A stretch of 62,161 bases of DNA, filler included, from Globobulimina sp. (taxonomy: Eukaryota): NCBI GenBank assembly GCA_003354225.1. It is 25 parts of 25 records of this genome, joined end to end, with 100 filler letters (N's around TTAATTAATTAA, not from the genome) between each part and the next. Parts side by side here need not be neighbours in the genome. Positions count along the whole stretch, not along the records: positions 47,330 to 49,718 come from PIVH01006965.1; 24 more parts are not named here. One strand, written 5' to 3'. The first letter of the stretch is position 1; every line of letters begins with the position of its first letter. The position numbers and the translations under genes are program-made. Below are positions 47,330-52,307 of this stretch, one piece after another. The notes under the pieces are model-generated. The model searched no databases. It was not told the origin of the DNA and saw nothing but the letters and a program-made list of their open reading frames with translations.

Positions 47330-47617
47330 GCAACAAACTTTTTTAGTACTAGGGGAAACCATGATATAATGAAACATTTATTAGTTGGTAAGAGGCATAC
47401 TAATAACATTATAATTCTTAATTTTCATTCAATAAGACAGATACCAAGGGATATTTTTGATCTTGTAAATTATGTGAATATTTACAAAACTCTCGATAAT
47501 GAGAATTTGGTAAAAGCTAAGTACGATCAAGAAAGTTTTATAAAACGATGGAACCAAGTCATGGATAGTGATAATCCACACAAGCATTATCTTTACGATA
47601 TTTATTTTCCCAAATAA
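47330..47617 (+). CDS. FtsK/HerA-superfamily (A32/P9-like) genome-packaging ATPase, C-terminal part
   Basis: Open from the contig edge: ATNFFSTRG...LLVGKRHTNNIIILNFHSIRQIPRDIFDLVNYVNIYKT, containing the Arg-finger RH, sensor strand and IP..I...N motif. Confidence 0.7.
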   Translation, partial: ATNFFSTRGNHDIMKHLLVGKRHTNNIIILNFHSIRQIPRDIFDLVNYVNIYKTLDNENLVKAKYDQESFIKRWNQVMDSDNPHKHYLYDIYFPK

Positions 47618-47645
47618 AAAACCCGCTATATGCGGGTTTATTTTT
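47618..47645. terminator. Bidirectional rho-independent terminator
   Basis: AAACCCGC-TATAT-GCGGGTTT flanked by A and T tracts, between convergent stops at 47615-47617 and 47638-47640. Confidence 0.85.
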
Positions 47646-47802
47646 GTTTAAATTTCGTACACTCTTTAACGTCAACAGTTATTAATTTTGATACTATTGG
47701 ACATCTTAACTCTTCATTAAATATTATTGTTGATTCATCATCTATAGTTACAATCATTTCTTGCCTTATCTGACAATTTACACACTCTCTACATTTTGTC
47801 AT
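47638..47802 (-). CDS. 54-aa Cys-rich, putative Zn-binding viral protein (not in the ORF track)
   Basis: MTKCRECVNCQIRQEMIVTIDDESTIIFNEELRCPIVSKLITVDVKECTKFKQK; ATGA overlap with the upstream stop. Confidence 0.7.
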   Translation of the reverse strand: MTKCRECVNCQIRQEMIVTIDDESTIIFNEELRCPIVSKLITVDVKECTKFKQK

Positions 47803-48218
47803 ATTATACTATTTTCAAAAGTTATTAAATAACCTATACCATATATATAAGAAGTATTTGAAATTGTTTTCCAAGTTTTACAAAATCGGTTTGAGAAAGA
47901 TTTTGAAATTTCATAGAATGGGTCACCATTAGCACGAATAGATAAAAGTTCAGCCCTTATAATATATGTTCTCAACAATCCTTTACCCACATAAGTATCA
48001 ATAGAGAATTGACTTTGAAACAATTCATTTATACAAGTATAACCAAATTCACGAAAAAACAATATTTGATTTGCTTCGGTTGTGATGTCTGGTTGTGGTG
48101 TTTCTATTTGTTCAAAATGAAATGGATCGATTTTAATAATAGTACCGAATAATTGCTCAGCTCTTTTTTCAATAGTTACTCCAAACTGATCTATAATTTG
48201 TGAGAAGATCGGTATCAT
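47799..48218 (-). CDS. Viral hypothetical beta-rich protein, 139 aa
   Basis: ATGA overlaps at both ends; no introns. Confidence 0.7.
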   Translation of the reverse strand: MIPIFSQIIDQFGVTIEKRAEQLFGTIIKIDPFHFEQIETPQPDITTEANQILFFREFGYTCINELFQSQFSIDTYVGKGLLRTYIIRAELLSIRANGDPFYEISKSFSNRFCKTWKTISNTSYIYGIGYLITFENSII

Positions 48219-48625
48219 CTTATAGGTTTATTATATTTTATAATATATCCTATTGACATACTATTTATTGTATTTACAAAGGAAACAATTTTGGTACAGA
48301 AAAAATTATGTGCAGTCATATGACCATTAAAAATATTCACATCGACACTGTTAACGGCTGCAATACTAGGAATTAATAATGTTGAAGCTCCCGTATCATC
48401 ATCTGTAATATTAACATTTAATTGTGCAGGTGGATTAGTTGAAAACGATTGAAATAATGTAATAAAAAGAACCTCATCATTTTCAACTTGTGGTATTAAG
48501 TCAGTGATTAAATTACTAAAATGTATATATGGTTCTATAGATAATATTTCACCGCGTTCACTACCTATTTTATTTATATGTATTCCATACCTTTCATTAT
48601 AATTGTTAAAAATTGGTATACTCAT
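48215..48625 (-). CDS. Viral hypothetical beta-rich protein, 136 aa
   Basis: ATGA overlaps at both ends; termini resemble those of the neighbouring ORF. Confidence 0.7.
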   Translation of the reverse strand: MSIPIFNNYNERYGIHINKIGSERGEILSIEPYIHFSNLITDLIPQVENDEVLFITLFQSFSTNPPAQLNVNITDDDTGASTLLIPSIAAVNSVDVNIFNGHMTAHNFFCTKIVSFVNTINSMSIGYIIKYNKPIR

Positions 48626-48798
48626 TTCTTTTTATCCTTTCTTTTATCTCGTATTGTTATTATTGTTACTACTAAAATAGCTATTTGTACAGCAATTTTT
48701 AAAATCATTTCAACATTATCAAATGATAATAATTGAGGTATTTGATGTATTACCTCAACACCTAAAATTCCTGTTATGGATGATATAATATCTTTCAT
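48622..48798 (-). CDS. 58-aa holin-like or small virion membrane protein (not in the ORF track)
   Basis: MKDIISSITGILGVEVIHQIPQLLSFDNVEMILKIAVQIAILVVTIITIRDKRKDKKK; hydrophobic helix and basic tail, directly downstream of the lysozyme-like gene. Confidence 0.65.
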   Translation of the reverse strand: MKDIISSITGILGVEVIHQIPQLLSFDNVEMILKIAVQIAILVVTIITIRDKRKDKKK

Positions 48799-48811
48799 TC
48801 GTTATATTTGT

Positions 48812-49339
48812 TTATTCATAAATTTTATATGTTAGTCTTGGTATAATACTATCTAATCGAGATTTATATATTTTTTGTGCCTTGGGATCTTTGGAATACC
48901 ATCTTGAAAAATTACCATCATGCTTTCTAGAATATTTTAAAACAGTTGCCATACTTGCATATAACGAAGGGAATTTTAAAAAATATTTTTTAAATCCTGT
49001 TTCATTTTCTGTGAATGGAATATATCCAGTTGGTTTTAAACTTGGGTTATTTCTCCATACTTCATTATGCATTGTATACCATCCATAAGGGTATGAAGAA
49101 CCAAATTTTTCCATACCCGCTGATTTAGTACCTAAAAATTGTTTACTCTTAAAATGATTTGACTCAAGCCTAAAGAGTTGTTCTAAAATTTTACTCTCTT
49201 CTTTTGTCATTTTATATTCAGAATGTAATCTTTTTAAATTCTTTTCAAATTCTGATTTCATACTAGATGCGCTCACTTTCATGGTAATTGCAAATAGTAT
49301 GATAACCAAAACAACAAAAATTATTCTATATTTTTTCAT
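48812..49339 (-). CDS. N-terminally membrane-anchored lysozyme-fold (GH73/transglycosylase-like) peptidoglycan hydrolase
   Basis: TM IIFVVLVIILFAITM; helix ending in a putative catalytic Glu (LFRLESNHF); FLKFPSLYAS; C-terminal WYS.DP....Y. Confidence 0.55.
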   Translation of the reverse strand: MKKYRIIFVVLVIILFAITMKVSASSMKSEFEKNLKRLHSEYKMTKEESKILEQLFRLESNHFKSKQFLGTKSAGMEKFGSSYPYGWYTMHNEVWRNNPSLKPTGYIPFTENETGFKKYFLKFPSLYASMATVLKYSRKHDGNFSRWYSKDPKAQKIYKSRLDSIIPRLTYKIYE

Positions 49340-49713
49340 TCTAAAGTATTAAGTTTAGTGATTATTCTTACTAAATCTTTTTTATTAAATTCGGCTAAAA
49401 TGTCATCCACAAGATCTCTGTCTTCGTATCTAAAGTAAGCGTCTACAAGTTGCGAAAATTGTTGTTTATTGTCCAATGCTGCTAATGTTGTAAAAAATTT
49501 ATTTTCATTGGTTCCAGCCCAACGCATTGACTTTCTCATATCTAAAGATAACTTTTTTATATCAGCTTCATTTTTTAGGTTCTTCTTTCCTAAGAAATAA
49601 GTTTTATTTACAAATTTAATATTTTGTAGTGTTGTTGGTGCTGCATCGGCAATCTTCTTTGCTACCCTTTCTTCCTTATTTTTTATTAATCCTACTTTTT
49701 TTAATATTAATAT
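49336..49713 (-). CDS. Single annexin-repeat viral protein, probably 5'-partial
   Basis: MRWAGTNENKFFTTLAALDNKQQFSQLVDAYFRYEDRDLVDDILAEF fits the annexin repeat MxGxGTDE...I...Y...Y.+DL..DI.SE; the frame is open upstream to 49713. Confidence 0.65.
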   Translation of the reverse strand: MLILKKVGLIKNKEERVAKKIADAAPTTLQNIKFVNKTYFLGKKNLKNEADIKKLSLDMRKSMRWAGTNENKFFTTLAALDNKQQFSQLVDAYFRYEDRDLVDDILAEFNKKDLVRIITKLNTLE

Positions 49714-49818
49714 TTAAANNNNNNNNNNNNNNNNNNNNNNNNNNNNNNNNNNNNNNNNNNNNTTAATTAATTAANNNNNNNNNNNNNNNNNNNNNNNNNN
49801 NNNNNNNNNNNNNNNNNN

Positions 49819-50670
49819 CTGGTTGCAGCACAGTTATTAGACGAAAATAATATCGGTCCCGGAGCAGTTATAAAAGCACCCTTTTACCAATCAAATAGCT
49901 GGAAACACATTCGTTGCATAGGTGTTTTACTATGGCTTCCATTGACCATTCCATCCATTTTATTTTACCCATTTACATATTTATTACAACCATTGTTATA
50001 CTTTGGTTTTGCCGCATTTATTGCACCATTTTGTGCATCGTTGTTATTTTGGATCAGTTTCGTAATATATATGCTTGACTATGCATATTCGGACGACATT
50101 GAGTTGGCATTACGGCTTTTAATGTGTGTATCATTCATTGTTATTGCTATTTTATCCTTGATTCCATTCAACAAAAAGCAAATAAATTTACAACAAAATG
50201 AATTATGGCAATTATCTTTAGATTATAAATATAGATTACGTTTCCCATCACATTTTGTATCACTTTGGCTTTCTTCATTTGGTGTTAGTTTTGCTTTATT
50301 TATTTGGCCATTTTGGATTCTTTTTGAATGTAAATATTGTCTTCAAACAATAAAACAATTATGGATCAATGATAAAAATATTGCTTTCAATAACAAGAAA
50401 GCAGCCAAACCCTTTGCGTTTTGGCATATTCGCCGGTATAAAGTTTCTGAATTTGATTGTAAACGCATCTCAATGGCAATATCATTTGTGTTTACTTTGG
50501 TGTTTGCTCCAATCTTTGTGGTTGGATGGCTTTTAACTGGTTTTTCCAGACATATTTATGCCTTCAAACCCAAATTCTGGGTCATTGCATTCGTTATATC
50601 TGCTTTGTTTTGGTCCTCTCTCTTATATTCATTATGGAATACAGATTTAGCAGTATTCACTTGGCACTGA
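49819..50670 (+). CDS. Multi-pass membrane protein fragment ending at the inverted-repeat boundary
   Basis: Several hydrophobic helices; the TGA stop lies 10-12 nt inside the repeat arm. Confidence 0.55.
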   Translation: MVAAQLLDENNIGPGAVIKAPFYQSNSWKHIRCIGVLLWLPLTIPSILFYPFTYLLQPLLYFGFAAFIAPFCASLLFWISFVIYMLDYAYSDDIELALRLLMCVSFIVIAILSLIPFNKKQINLQQNELWQLSLDYKYRLRFPSHFVSLWLSSFGVSFALFIWPFWILFECKYCLQTIKQLWINDKNIAFNNKKAAKPFAFWHIRRYKVSEFDCKRISMAISFVFTLVFAPIFVVGWLLTGFSRHIYAFKPKFWVIAFVISALFWSSLLYSLWNTDLAVFTWH

Positions 50671-51865
50671 AAACTTGTGTTGACTCTCAAAAACCTGTCC
50701 GCATTTTGACAGACAAAAAGACCAGAAAAGATGTTGAAATCGAAAAAGACCACAAAAGATGTCGCGTTTTCAAAGGAACAAGTTTTAACAGTCAAGTTCA
50801 GCGACTCTTTCCTTTGGCAAACAAACAACACCAATTACAATCAACAGTCGCATTAAGAGGAATTTCGAATGAAATTATCACCACAAGTAATAAATGTGAT
50901 TAAATTGGTATTTGGTAATTGAATTGATTTGAATTGAATTGGATAGAATTGAATAGAATTGAATAGAATTGAATTGTGTTAGATGGAGAATTAAATTTAG
51001 TGGAATTGGATGGAGAAATAATGACTCCACCAAAGTGTACGAGAGAAAAATGTGGAGAGACAAACGGGTGCATAGAAAAGTGGTAAAGCCACAAGTGCCA
51101 CGCGGCAGAACACACCGCGACAAGAACAAAAATAAGGCACACATAATAAATAAAGAAAATATGTGGTGCCCTTTTTGTAATAACTTGTTTAATGTGCAAG
51201 GGAATTTACAAAATGTTTACATTTCACATTTGCACATAAATGCTGCATTTTTTTTGAAATAATCTGCTCTTCAAACTAAGAAAACAAGCTTGAATTACAT
51301 CTTTTTTAACCCTTGCACATTAAACAAGTTATTACAAAAAGTGCACCACATATTTTCTTTATTTATTATGTGTGCCATCTTTTTGTTCTTGCCGCGGTGT
51401 GTTCTGCCGCGTGGCACTTGTGGCTTTACCACTTTTCTATGCACCCGTTTGTCTCTCCACATTTTTCTCTCGTACACTTTGGTGTGGTCATTCATATCAG
51501 TTCTGGGGTTGTCGCCCGTTTTCATTTATTTCTCCATCCAATTCCACTAAATTTAATTCTCCATCTAACACAATTCAATTCTATTCACTTCTATATCCAA
51601 TTCAATTCAATTACCAAATACCAATTTAATCACCTTACTTGTGATGATAATTCCATTCCTCTTTAATGCGACTGTTGATTGTAATTGGTGTCTGTTGTTT
51701 GTTTGCCAAAGGAAAGAGTCGCTGAACTTGACTGTTAAAACTTGTTCCTTTGAAAACGCCACATCTTTTGTGGTCTTTTTCGATTTCAACATCTTTTCTG
51801 GTCTTTTTGTCTGTCAAAATGCGGACAGGTTTTTGAGAGTCAAAAGAAGTTTTCAGTGCCAAGTG
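50658..51865. repeat. Diverged long inverted repeat: arms 50658-51202 and 51310-51865, 107-bp spacer
   Basis: Arms are reverse complements with substitutions, a ~35-bp indel and different (GAATT)n lengths; near-identical ORFs appear on opposite strands. Confidence 0.95.
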
Positions 51866-52307
51866 TTCCTTCTGGCCATTTTCTCGTCCATTCCATGGCC
51901 AAACCATACCAATTTTTTTTCTCGATACCATGATTACCATAATTCTCATTGTCTGTTTTATATTGAATGCCCCCTTTAATATCTATATTTGCAAAAGCAG
52001 CAAATCCCATTCTATCATCTTTCGCCTCCGTCCAATGTGTATTTAAATTCAATAAATCTCCGATGCGTTTAATGTATTTGAATGCGCGATCAATAGGATT
52101 GATTTTTTAGTTATTAGTATGTCAATTATATAACATCCCAAGGTGACGAATTCATCAATGATCATCCATTGATAAAACAAATTGATGAATGTCATCCATC
52201 ATACAAANNNNNNNNNNNNNNNNNNNNNNNNNNNNNNNNNNNNNNNNNNNNTTAATTAATTAANNNNNNNNNNNNNNNNNNNNNNNNNNNNNNNNNNNNN
52301 NNNNNNN

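What the first reader, a model, noticed from the sequence alone, without database searches (positions are those of the whole stretch)
49336..49713. Single annexin repeat encoded in a viral lysis/entry module
Seen: AGTNE...FTTL...QQFSQLVDAYFRYEDRDLVDDILAEF follows the annexin repeat, including the GxGT loop and the downstream acidic cap residue. It is preceded by a hydrophobic/basic segment at the contig edge and is coupled to the muralytic gene. Known: eukaryotic annexins have four repeats and bind membranes in a Ca2+-dependent way; single-repeat prokaryotic versions are rare and little characterised. Inference: a virion membrane-binding or entry protein, relevant to annexin origins.
Basis: partly seen in the sequence, partly recalled or inferred. 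Interest (0 to 1): 0.72.

Follow-up and report, generated by a model that had tools for sequence, protein, structure and literature searches.

The report
Membrane-anchored single annexin repeat, phage
A small phage-type gene next to cell-bursting genes encodes one genuine annexin repeat (the calcium-dependent lipid-binding unit best known from animal cells) that in its relatives hangs from a single membrane helix, a combination not described in print for any virus.

Summary
The annexin call is right. The minus-strand ORF 49336-49713 matches only annexins in the PDB (38 of 38 hits, best E 5e-9). With its relatives it folds at pLDDT 91.7 into a five-helix repeat. That model superposes on annexin repeats at Z 7.5-10.9, against 6.1 or less for unrelated folds.

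It belongs to a family of 141-167-aa proteins with an N-terminal membrane helix, a basic linker and one annexin repeat (32 relatives in an exhaustive search, all from metagenomes). Here the gene lacks its membrane helix: the 2.4-kb contig ends, and an in-frame TAA sits at the edge.

The contig is a compact phage-type operon inside an otherwise eukaryotic, fragmentary assembly. The gene overlaps (ATGA) a signal-peptide protein that only a language-model search links to glucosaminidases. A holin-like gene follows. A relative (L003) lies 1.4 kb upstream of a clear endolysin.

My reading is a host-membrane-anchored lipid binder working with the lysis genes, not a virion entry protein. The function is inferred, not shown.

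Earlier notes of this scan record annexin repeats in uncultured phages of at least 16 other genomes. A sequence look-up found no look-alike of this protein among them. My paper searches found no report of a viral annexin.

The parts
49336..49713 (-). 5'-truncated gene for a membrane-anchored single-annexin-repeat protein: 125 codons plus a TGA stop at 49336-49338. The first ATG is only at 49537-49539 (residue 59).
   Evidence: Relatives align from query residue 3 to 124, at their own residues ~23-150. The stretch upstream of the ATG is therefore coding, and the true start lies beyond the contig end.
49714..49716 (-). In-frame TAA, two bases from the contig end, cutting off the expected membrane helix.
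   Evidence: TAA ends three other genes of this contig, so it is a stop here. Independent Logan contigs cover only 47332-49633, so the edge is unconfirmed.
49678..49713 (-). Residues 1-12: the end of the membrane helix and the conserved basic juxtamembrane motif (K-K-V-G-L-I-K).
   Evidence: Alignment A1. A hydrophobic 19-mer lies upstream of this motif in 32 of 32 full-length relatives.
49621..49677 (-). Residues 13-31: a charged linker helix predicted with high confidence.
   Evidence: AF2 model with alignment, helix H13-31, block pLDDT 85-96.
49348..49569 (-). Residues 49-122: the annexin repeat, five helices A-E.
   Evidence: Helices 49-63, 70-78, 83-97, 101-108 and 111-122. They superpose on annexin repeats over 72-79 residues at rmsd 2.0-3.1 A, Z 10-11.5.
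49504..49521 (-). AB loop W65-A-G-T-N-E70, the counterpart of the annexin calcium- and membrane-binding loop.
   Evidence: Five of 33 family members carry hydrophobic or aromatic insertions here.
49390..49392 (-). E108, the acidic cap residue, 40 residues after T68.
   Evidence: It aligns with the cap position of annexin A4 repeat 1. The position is acidic in 30 of 33 family members.
48812..49339 (-). 175-aa protein with an N-terminal signal-like hydrophobic segment. Its start overlaps the annexin gene's stop (ATGA). It is a candidate peptidoglycan hydrolase.
   Evidence: Atlas: 26 of 30 nearest clusters carry PF01832 Glucosaminidase and are viral, score 0.94 with 178 shared features. There is no HMM support. 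Three homologues share an invariant Glu.
48622..48798 (-). 58-aa membrane protein with a highly charged C-terminus; holin-like.
   Evidence: Weak match to PHROG phrog_4325 holin, E 0.011.
48215..48625 (-). 136-aa protein of unknown function; a paralogue of the next gene.
   Evidence: BLASTP 28% identity, E 2e-7. No family match.
47799..48218 (-). 139-aa protein of unknown function; a paralogue of the previous gene.
47619..47639 (.). Two-way hairpin terminator closing the minus-strand operon and the converging plus-strand ORF.
   Evidence: 8-bp stem with 5 GC pairs and T-runs on both strands. Four terminator-like sites were found against 0.4 expected.

Best explanation
Shown:
- This is the 3' five-sixths of a gene for a protein of about 150 aa, made of one N-terminal membrane helix, a basic and charged linker, and a single genuine annexin repeat.
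- It belongs to a family known only from metagenome contigs.
- In the one relative with enough flanking DNA, the neighbours are phage genes.
- Here it lies on a small phage-type contig that contaminates a eukaryotic assembly, and it is translationally coupled to the next gene.

Inferred:
- The protein is made late, together with the lysis genes: a secreted candidate wall hydrolase and a holin-like protein.
- It is held in the host cytoplasmic membrane by its helix.
- The repeat's convex face (loop W-A-G-T-N-E plus cap E108) binds calcium and acidic phospholipid head groups, as annexin repeats do.

Mechanism I commit to: the repeat faces the periplasm, where calcium is available. Once the wall is cut, it grips a second lipid surface (the inner leaflet of the outer membrane, or the outer face of its own membrane). 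It thereby helps to disrupt or fuse the envelope, a spanin-like or lysis-accessory role.

The identity part is near certain (0.95 or more). The phage origin is about 0.8. The lysis-linked membrane-binding role as a whole is about 0.4.
For: Annexin identity:
- phmmer against the PDB: 38 of 38 hits are annexins, best E 5e-9.
- Family profile against the PDB: E 1.3e-42.
- 25 of 33 family members match PF00191 at E 0.01 or better, best 2.9e-10.
- AF2 with the 33-row alignment: pLDDT 91.7, pTM 0.81, five helices.
- Foldseek against the PDB: the top 50 are all annexin chains or annexin fusions, with 70-78 columns at rmsd 1.7-3.2 A, though E is only 0.02-0.3.
- Unbiased VIA-align over 48,161 chains: ranks 1-11 are annexins, giardins, annexin fusions and astrotactin-2, at Z 7.5-10.9. 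The next row is 6.1.

Family and anchor:
- 32 of 48 exhaustive-search hits are 141-167 aa and align over query residues 3-124.
- All 32 have an N-terminal hydrophobic 19-mer.

Lipid-facing loop:
- The x position of the loop is W, L, F or M in 24 of 33 members.
- Five of 33 have hydrophobic insertions there.

Phage and lysis context:
- ATGA overlap with the next gene.
- Neighbour resembles viral PF01832 clusters by language model.
- Weak holin match for the 58-aa gene.
- Hairpin terminator, and no Shine-Dalgarno motifs with tightly packed genes.
- Relative L003 has an endolysin (phrog_873, E 4e-42), membrane proteins and an fn3 tail-like protein downstream on the same strand.
- The nearest Atlas clusters are labelled 69-85% viral, Uroviricota.
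Against: - No experiment exists, and no cultured phage carries the family. tblastn with 5 members against 50,697 phage records found nothing.
- The window copy lacks the membrane helix and has an in-frame stop at the contig edge. It may be a broken copy or an assembly-end error.
- Topology is open. The flank after the helix carries more K/R than the N-tail in 27 of 32 relatives (mean 4.5 against 2.6). By the positive-inside rule this favours a cytoplasmic repeat, where free calcium is low.
- The first G of the calcium loop is W here.
- The neighbour's hydrolase identity has no HMM support.
- Linkage to a lysis gene is seen only in the window (adjacent) and in L003 (1.4 kb away). The other loci are too short, or show only small unassignable ORFs.
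- No outer-membrane lipoprotein partner was seen in the contig.
Confidence: 0.4

Rival explanations
1. Cytoplasm-facing lysis timer. The helix anchors the repeat on the inner face of the cytoplasmic membrane. There it binds acidic lipid and modulates holin triggering or release of the secreted hydrolase. It would act like an antiholin or releasin, perhaps responding to ion influx when the membrane starts to leak.
For: The flank after the helix is richer in K/R in 27 of 32 relatives. The gene shares the operon with the holin-like gene and the signal-peptide hydrolase candidate. Eukaryotic annexins are cytosolic proteins that respond to calcium entry at membrane lesions (established knowledge, recalled).
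Against: The net-charge comparison is mixed: C-side greater in 18, N-side in 9, equal in 5. Bacterial cytoplasmic calcium is very low (recalled). There is no similarity to known holin, antiholin or releasin families.
Confidence: 0.2
2. A host-membrane protein unrelated to lysis. It could be a superinfection-exclusion or envelope-remodelling protein that merely sits beside the lysis genes.
For: Small single-pass phage membrane proteins often serve exclusion (recalled). In L003 the gene is 1.4 kb from the endolysin, with unrelated small ORFs between. Downstream genes differ among loci.
Against: The direct ATGA coupling to the candidate hydrolase in the window. No match to any PADLOC defence model, although that library does not cover exclusion proteins well.
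Confidence: 0.15
3. One reading: a virion protein that binds the host membrane during entry.
For: Annexin repeats do occur inside large phage proteins. L011 has a 587-aa ORF among large ORFs, and its repeat is 42% identical to a family member. Earlier notes of this scan, which are unchecked AI notes, describe annexin repeats in tape-measure-like and cargo proteins.
Against: This family is small and starts with a membrane helix typical of proteins inserted into the producer cell's membrane. Its neighbours are lysis-type, not structural. No capsid, tail or internal-membrane marker is on the contig.
Confidence: 0.1
4. A chromosomal bacterial gene (for example of a Bacteroidota-type cell) of the known class of single-domain, membrane-anchored bacterial annexins, with no phage role.
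For: One near Atlas cluster is named 'putative Annexin' and is 57% bacterial, Bacteroidota. Single-domain and membrane-anchored bacterial annexins are published (PMC3894181: abstract, sections 6 and 10, and search passages read).
Against: Two pattern scans of 185,579 species genomes found no relative; sensitivity was limited to the patterns used. The L003 context is phage-like. The operon consists of small orphan genes.
Confidence: 0.1

Closest known systems
Bacterial single-domain and membrane-anchored annexins (Kodavali et al. 2014, PMC3894181; for example the short flavobacterial annexins of Kordia and Aquimarina)
   Same: One annexin repeat per protein, a predicted transmembrane region in some, and remote but significant similarity to eukaryotic repeats. 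In L003 a gene with an HExxH motif lies directly upstream. This recalls that paper's remark that metalloproteases lie near the Kordia annexins.
   Different: That survey reported no annexins in viruses. This family lies in phage-type gene clusters beside lysis genes. It was not found in two pattern scans of species genomes. I could not compare sequences directly with the published bacterial proteins, because none was fetched.
Eukaryotic annexins (A4, A5, A6, giardins; Pfam PF00191)
   Same: The five-helix repeat fold, at Z 10-11.5 and rmsd 2-3 A over 72-79 residues. The G-T-[DN]-E loop, the acidic cap and the Lys/Arg after helix B are kept. The W before the loop recalls the repeat-3 alignment with annexin A4 and A3.
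   Different: One repeat instead of four. An N-terminal membrane helix, which eukaryotic annexins lack. The first loop glycine is W in the window copy. The family forms its own group in a quick repeat tree: 38 short-family repeats together with 3 others at SH-aLRT 93, apart from a clade of 55 four-repeat-type rows.
Phage spanins (lambda Rz/Rz1, T1 gp11) and other lysis accessory membrane proteins
   Same: About 150 aa with one N-terminal membrane helix followed by a helical soluble domain. The gene lies within or next to the lysis cassette.
   Different: No sequence or family match. The soluble part is a globular lipid-binding repeat, not a coiled coil. No lipoprotein partner is seen in the window. 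This is a functional analogy only.
Annexin repeats inside large uncultured-phage proteins
   Same: The same repeat type. The L011 repeat is 42% identical to family member P0013 over 53 residues and groups with the family in the quick tree.
   Different: Those repeats are embedded in proteins of 300-740 aa, per the scan's unchecked notes with cell-wall-binding domains or in tail-gene slots. This is a minimal anchor-plus-repeat protein.

Membership tests
Annexin repeat (Pfam PF00191) | Significant sequence similarity to annexin repeats | tested here: met
   phmmer against the PDB: 38 of 38 hits are annexins, best E 5e-9. Family profile against annexin VI: E 1.3e-42.
Annexin repeat (Pfam PF00191) | Operational cut-off: Pfam gathering score of 25 bits for the protein itself | tested here: inconclusive
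   The window protein scores 20.4 bits, E 5.4e-4, below the cut-off. Relatives pass: L003 26.9 bits and L001 27.0 bits. 25 of 33 members match at E 0.01 or better, best 2.9e-10.
Annexin repeat (Pfam PF00191) | Five-helix (A-E) repeat fold | tested here: met
   AF2 pLDDT 91.7 with five helices. Annexins fill ranks 1-11 of 48,161 chains at Z 7.5-10.9, with the next row at 6.1. The isolated annexin I domain 1 (1bo9) aligns over 73 of 73 residues at rmsd 2.0 A. The model depends on the alignment: the single-sequence model (pLDDT 65.8) gave no annexin match.
Annexin repeat (Pfam PF00191) | Type II calcium site: a G-x-G-T loop plus an acidic residue about 38-40 positions downstream (motif as named in the finding, and recalled) | tested here: inconclusive
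   The window has W-A-G-T with cap E108. The family has the first G in 17 of 33, the second G in 32 of 33, T in 30 of 33, and the cap as E or D in 30 of 33. Whether W in place of the first G still allows calcium binding cannot be read from sequence.
Annexin repeat (Pfam PF00191) | Calcium-dependent binding to acidic phospholipid | not testable with these tools
   Needs a liposome binding assay.
Canonical eukaryotic annexin (four-repeat core) | Four (or eight) tandem repeats forming the core disc | tested here: not met
   One repeat per protein in the window copy and in all 32 short relatives.
Bacterial single-domain membrane-anchored annexins (Kodavali 2014) | A single annexin domain with a predicted transmembrane region | tested here: met
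   The family shows a hydrophobic 19-mer in 32 of 32 members. The window copy keeps only its last residues.
Bacterial single-domain membrane-anchored annexins (Kodavali 2014) | Encoded in a bacterial chromosome | tested here: inconclusive
   Two pattern scans of the genome collection found none. The contexts seen are phage-like. One Atlas cluster is 57% bacterial. Prophages cannot be excluded.
Spanin (i-spanin/o-spanin or u-spanin) | Family match, or a coiled-coil periplasmic domain with an outer-membrane lipoprotein partner | tested here: inconclusive
   No PHROG or NCBIfam spanin match for this protein. No lipoprotein ORF was noticed in the window contig. L003 has a 194-aa lipobox protein between the annexin gene and the endolysin. 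The claim is analogy of action only.
Holin | A small membrane protein matching a holin family, with a charged C-terminal tail | tested here: inconclusive
   The annexin protein has no holin match. The 58-aa neighbour is the better holin candidate (phrog_4325, E 0.011).
Glucosaminidase PF01832 (neighbour gene 48812-49339) | HMM match to PF01832 or to a solved glucosaminidase | tested here: inconclusive
   No HMM match at E up to 10 for the protein or its 3 homologues. The language-model search puts 26 of 30 nearest clusters in PF01832, score 0.94 with 178 shared features. A Glu is invariant among the 4 sequences.

The most novel reading that the evidence does not exclude
Tailed phages of AT-rich, Bacteroidota-like hosts carry a minimal annexin: one membrane helix plus one repeat. 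It would act as a calcium-triggered membrane bridge or fusogen in host lysis, doing the job of spanins by a eukaryote-like lipid-binding mechanism. Phages would then hold a large, overlooked pool of single annexin repeats, able to move this domain between bacteria and perhaps towards eukaryotes.
Probability: 0.12. Interest if true: 0.8.

Novelty: new variant of a known kind. Interest (0 to 1): 0.55.

Why it matters
Annexins are textbook eukaryotic proteins. The one systematic survey of prokaryotes that I read found about thirty bacterial homologues and none in viruses (PMC3894181). It called for viral and more distant homologues to settle the family's origin.

Here a sizeable family puts the smallest possible annexin, an anchor plus one repeat, into phage gene clusters beside lysis genes:
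- 32 representatives at the 50% identity level in the exhaustive search.
- Nearby Atlas clusters of 68-174 members, most of them labelled viral.

That gives a tractable model for two things. One is how a single repeat binds membranes. The other is a candidate new player in how phages open Gram-negative-type envelopes, where spanin equivalents are often missing from annotations.

The window copy itself is a poor specimen: truncated, at low coverage, and a contaminant contig. The value lies in the family.

Tried and rejected
Structure searches that gave nothing:
- The single-sequence AF2 model (pLDDT 65.8) gave no annexin in Foldseek; the top rows were receptors and four-helix bundles at E 0.5 or more. 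It was superseded by the alignment-based model.
- BFVD viral structures: no match at E 0.001 or better. Rank 6 was an 801-aa uncultured-phage protein with 81 columns at rmsd 2.0 A, E 1.8.

Searches for relatives:
- The word-indexed protein search found no relative of the window protein.
- Eight IMG/VR scans found no member of the small family.
- L006 was a false positive in a tail-fibre-like ORF.
- L007-L010 hold a 190-aa ORF with only a loop-motif resemblance and no Pfam annexin match.
- L011 is a different architecture.
- Two scans of the genome collection found nothing.
- blastn of the contig and tblastn of 5 family members and the neighbour against 50,697 phage records found nothing useful.

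The neighbour gene:
- Pfam, PHROGs, NCBIfam and PDB profile searches were all negative.
- It is unrelated to the L003 endolysin.
- PADLOC found nothing for any protein of the contig.

The in-frame TAA:
- Reading TAA as a sense codon to rescue the N-terminus is rejected, because TAA ends three genes of the contig.
- The read-level check of the contig edge failed. The one run available holds three contigs that stop at 49633.

Not run:
- Homodimer prediction of the repeat (complex prediction). The queue was full at every try.
- No whole genome is held for this window.

Paper searches for annexins in phages or viruses found no such report. The hits were annexin V staining kits (passages read) or polymorphic-toxin annexin domains (passages read).
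Full report
**What the window is.** The 62,161-base window is not one locus. It is 25 contigs of 2,388-2,393 bases joined by spacers of 44 N, TTAATTAATTAA and 44 N. The finding lies in contig 47330-49718, at 27.3% G+C. I scanned the 32 longest reading frames of the other contigs. 19 carry Pfam domains at E 1e-5 or better, mostly of eukaryotic type: APC1, PP2A-type HEAT repeats, CAP-Gly, SAM, SPRY, PARP, MA3 and ankyrin. This contig is different:
- Six tightly packed minus-strand genes, three of the junctions being 4-base ATGA overlaps.
- No Shine-Dalgarno motifs.
- A two-way hairpin terminator at 47619-47639, shared with a converging plus-strand ORF.
It is a prokaryote- or phage-type fragment inside a fragmentary eukaryotic assembly. 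No whole genome is held for the window.

**The observation.** On the minus strand, 49336-49713 reads as 125 residues ending in TGA. The first ATG is residue 59. The quoted residues are present.
- Pfam finds PF00191 Annexin at E 5.4e-4 and 20.4 bits, under the 25-bit cut-off, over residues 60-109.
- phmmer against every PDB sequence returns 38 sequences, all annexins, best E 5e-9. Annexins A4, A3, A6, A7 and A5 align repeat by repeat.
- The loop is W-A-G-T-N-E rather than G-x-G-T.
- The acidic cap (E108) aligns with the cap of annexin A4 repeat 1.

**A family, and a truncated gene.**
- The word-indexed search found nothing.
- The exhaustive HMMER search of 1.84 billion representatives found 48 proteins at E 0.001 or better, best 8.9e-9.
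- Sixteen are multi-repeat annexins of 231-1,208 aa.
- Thirty-two are 141-167 aa and align with query residues 3-124 at their own positions ~23-150.
- All 32 begin with a hydrophobic 19-mer. A conserved basic motif, a charged linker, an F-N-P-x-Y-type motif and one annexin repeat follow.
So the stretch upstream of the ATG is coding, and about 20-30 N-terminal residues, the membrane helix, are missing. The contig ends there, and an in-frame TAA sits at 49714-49716. TAA is a working stop in this contig. The only public run that holds the contig covers it at depth ~6, and only up to 49633. I therefore cannot say whether the stop is an end-of-contig error or a broken copy.

**Is it an annexin?**
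- The family profile hits annexin VI at E 1.3e-42. All 60 listed PDB rows (of 85) are annexins or annexin fusions.
- 25 of 33 family members match PF00191 at E 0.01 or better. The relatives L003 and L001 pass the gathering score.
- The single-sequence model was poor and matched nothing relevant.
- With the 33-row alignment, AF2 gives pLDDT 91.7 and pTM 0.81, with helices at 49-63, 70-78, 83-97, 101-108 and 111-122, plus a linker helix at 13-31.
- In Foldseek the top 50 PDB rows are all annexin chains or annexin A2 fusions (probability 1.00 for most, 0.92 or more for all; 70-78 columns; rmsd 1.7-3.2 A; E only 0.02-0.3, as expected for a 75-residue domain).
- VIA-align without Foldseek, over 48,161 representative chains, places annexins, giardins, annexin fusions and astrotactin-2 at ranks 1-11 (Z 7.5-10.9). 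It then drops to 6.1 and to 5.4 or less.
- The isolated annexin I domain aligns over all 73 residues at 2.0 A.
The repeat is real.

**Family features that bear on mechanism**:
- Second loop G in 32 of 33, T in 30 of 33, the following E in 33 of 33.
- First loop G in 17 of 33 (W in 5, including the window).
- Cap position E or D in 30 of 33.
- The x position of the loop is W, L, F or M in 24 of 33.
- Five members carry 4-13-residue hydrophobic or aromatic insertions in this loop. This fits a lipid-facing loop.
Topology is unresolved. The flank after the helix holds more K/R than the short N-tail in 27 of 32 members (none the reverse). The net-charge comparison is mixed at 18/9/5.

**Context.**
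- In the window, the gene's stop overlaps the start of a 175-aa gene (ATGA) whose product starts with a signal-like segment.
- HMM searches say nothing about that product.
- A protein-language-model search puts 26 of its 30 nearest clusters among viral PF01832 glucosaminidase proteins of 187-193 aa (score 0.94, 178 shared features).
- Its three homologues, all metagenomic, share an invariant Glu. I treat 'wall hydrolase' as probable, not shown.
- Next comes a 58-aa membrane protein with a very basic tail and a weak holin match (E 0.011).
- Then come two paralogous orphan genes and a 54-aa ORF.

Five metagenome loci hold relatives. L003 (4.9 kb) gives real context. In order it carries:
- an HExxH-motif ORF;
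- the annexin gene (Pfam 26.9 bits);
- small ORFs;
- an 88-aa membrane protein;
- a 194-aa lipobox protein;
- a membrane-anchored endolysin (phrog_873, E 4e-42);
- a 75-aa membrane protein;
- an fn3 tail-like protein.
The other loci are too short to inform, or show only small ORFs. The nearest Atlas clusters to the annexin protein are 153, 130 and 153 aa long and 69-85% viral (Uroviricota). One 162-aa cluster, 'putative Annexin', is 57% bacterial (Bacteroidota). The family was not found in 50,697 GenBank phage records, in IMG/VR by the patterns used, or in 185,579 species genomes by two patterns.

**How it most likely works.**
- Shown: a single annexin repeat on a membrane anchor, in a phage-type operon, coupled to the next gene.
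- Inferred: it is inserted into the host cytoplasmic membrane late in infection and binds calcium and acidic lipid through the loop face.
- I commit, at about 0.4, to a lysis-accessory role. The repeat would sit in the periplasm, gripping a second lipid surface once the wall is cut, which is a spanin-like action.
- The main rival (0.2) keeps the lysis link but puts the repeat in the cytoplasm as a regulator of holin triggering or hydrolase release.

**Comparison with what is known.**
- Kodavali et al. 2014 (PMC3894181; I read the abstract, sections 6 and 10, and search passages) describe about thirty bacterial annexins. [quoted passage not shown]
- Zhang et al. 2012 (PMC3482391; passages read) note single annexin domains in secreted polymorphic toxins.
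- Six full-text searches combining annexin with phage, bacteriophage, prophage, spanin or PF00191 gave no report of a viral annexin.
- Within this scan, earlier AI notes (unchecked) record annexin repeats in uncultured phages of at least 16 other genomes, mostly inside large envelope-binding or tail proteins.
- I saw one such large form myself. L011 has a 587-aa ORF whose repeat is 42% identical to family member P0013.
- In a quick, weakly resolved repeat tree (110 repeats, 78 columns, SH-aLRT only; the careful search did not finish), the 38 short-family repeats group with the L011 repeat and two long-branch repeats (support 93). They lie apart from a clade of 55 four-repeat-type rows (95). 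This shows a distinct lineage, not its age or the direction of transfer.

**Verdict.** The thing is a new variant of a known kind: a phage-borne, membrane-anchored minimal annexin. The window copy is truncated and weakly covered, so the interest lies in the family.

Noticed in passing
window 1-62161: The window is a chain of 25 unrelated contigs of about 2.39 kb, joined by N44-TTAATTAATTAA-N44 spacers and sorted by length. Of the 32 longest frames of the other contigs, 19 carry Pfam domains, mostly eukaryotic in type (APC1, CAP-Gly, SAM, SPRY, PARP, HEAT, ankyrin). The phage-type contig is therefore a contaminant or associate of a eukaryotic sample.
   Followed up: partly
window 47799-48625 (-): Two adjacent orphan genes (136 and 139 aa) are paralogues: 28% identity, E 2e-7. 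Neither matches any family in Pfam, PHROGs, NCBIfam or PADLOC.
   Followed up: partly
window 50526-51949: In the neighbouring (eukaryotic) contig, near-identical ORF translations appear on opposite strands, for example at 50731-50856 (+) and 51607-51792 (-). This suggests a large inverted repeat.
   Followed up: no
L003 3-509 (+): The gene directly upstream of the annexin gene in this relative carries an HExxH metalloprotease-type motif but matches no Pfam or PHROG family. Kodavali et al. noted metalloproteases next to the annexins of Kordia algicida.
   Followed up: partly
L007 9854-10426 (+), and the same in L008-L010: Viral contigs of 125-373 kb encode a 190-aa protein without a membrane helix whose first half resembles the annexin A helix and loop. 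Pfam gives no annexin match at E 0.01 or better.
   Followed up: partly
L011 5761-7524 (+): A 9.6-kb IMG/VR contig encodes a 587-aa protein with a long Pro-Glu repeat tract and one annexin repeat (about residues 331-395), set among large ORFs. It is a different architecture from the small anchored family.
   Followed up: partly
alignment A1, columns 121-135: Five of 33 family members (P0012, P0019, P0020, P0024, P0041) carry 4-13-residue hydrophobic or aromatic insertions in the calcium-loop region.
   Followed up: no
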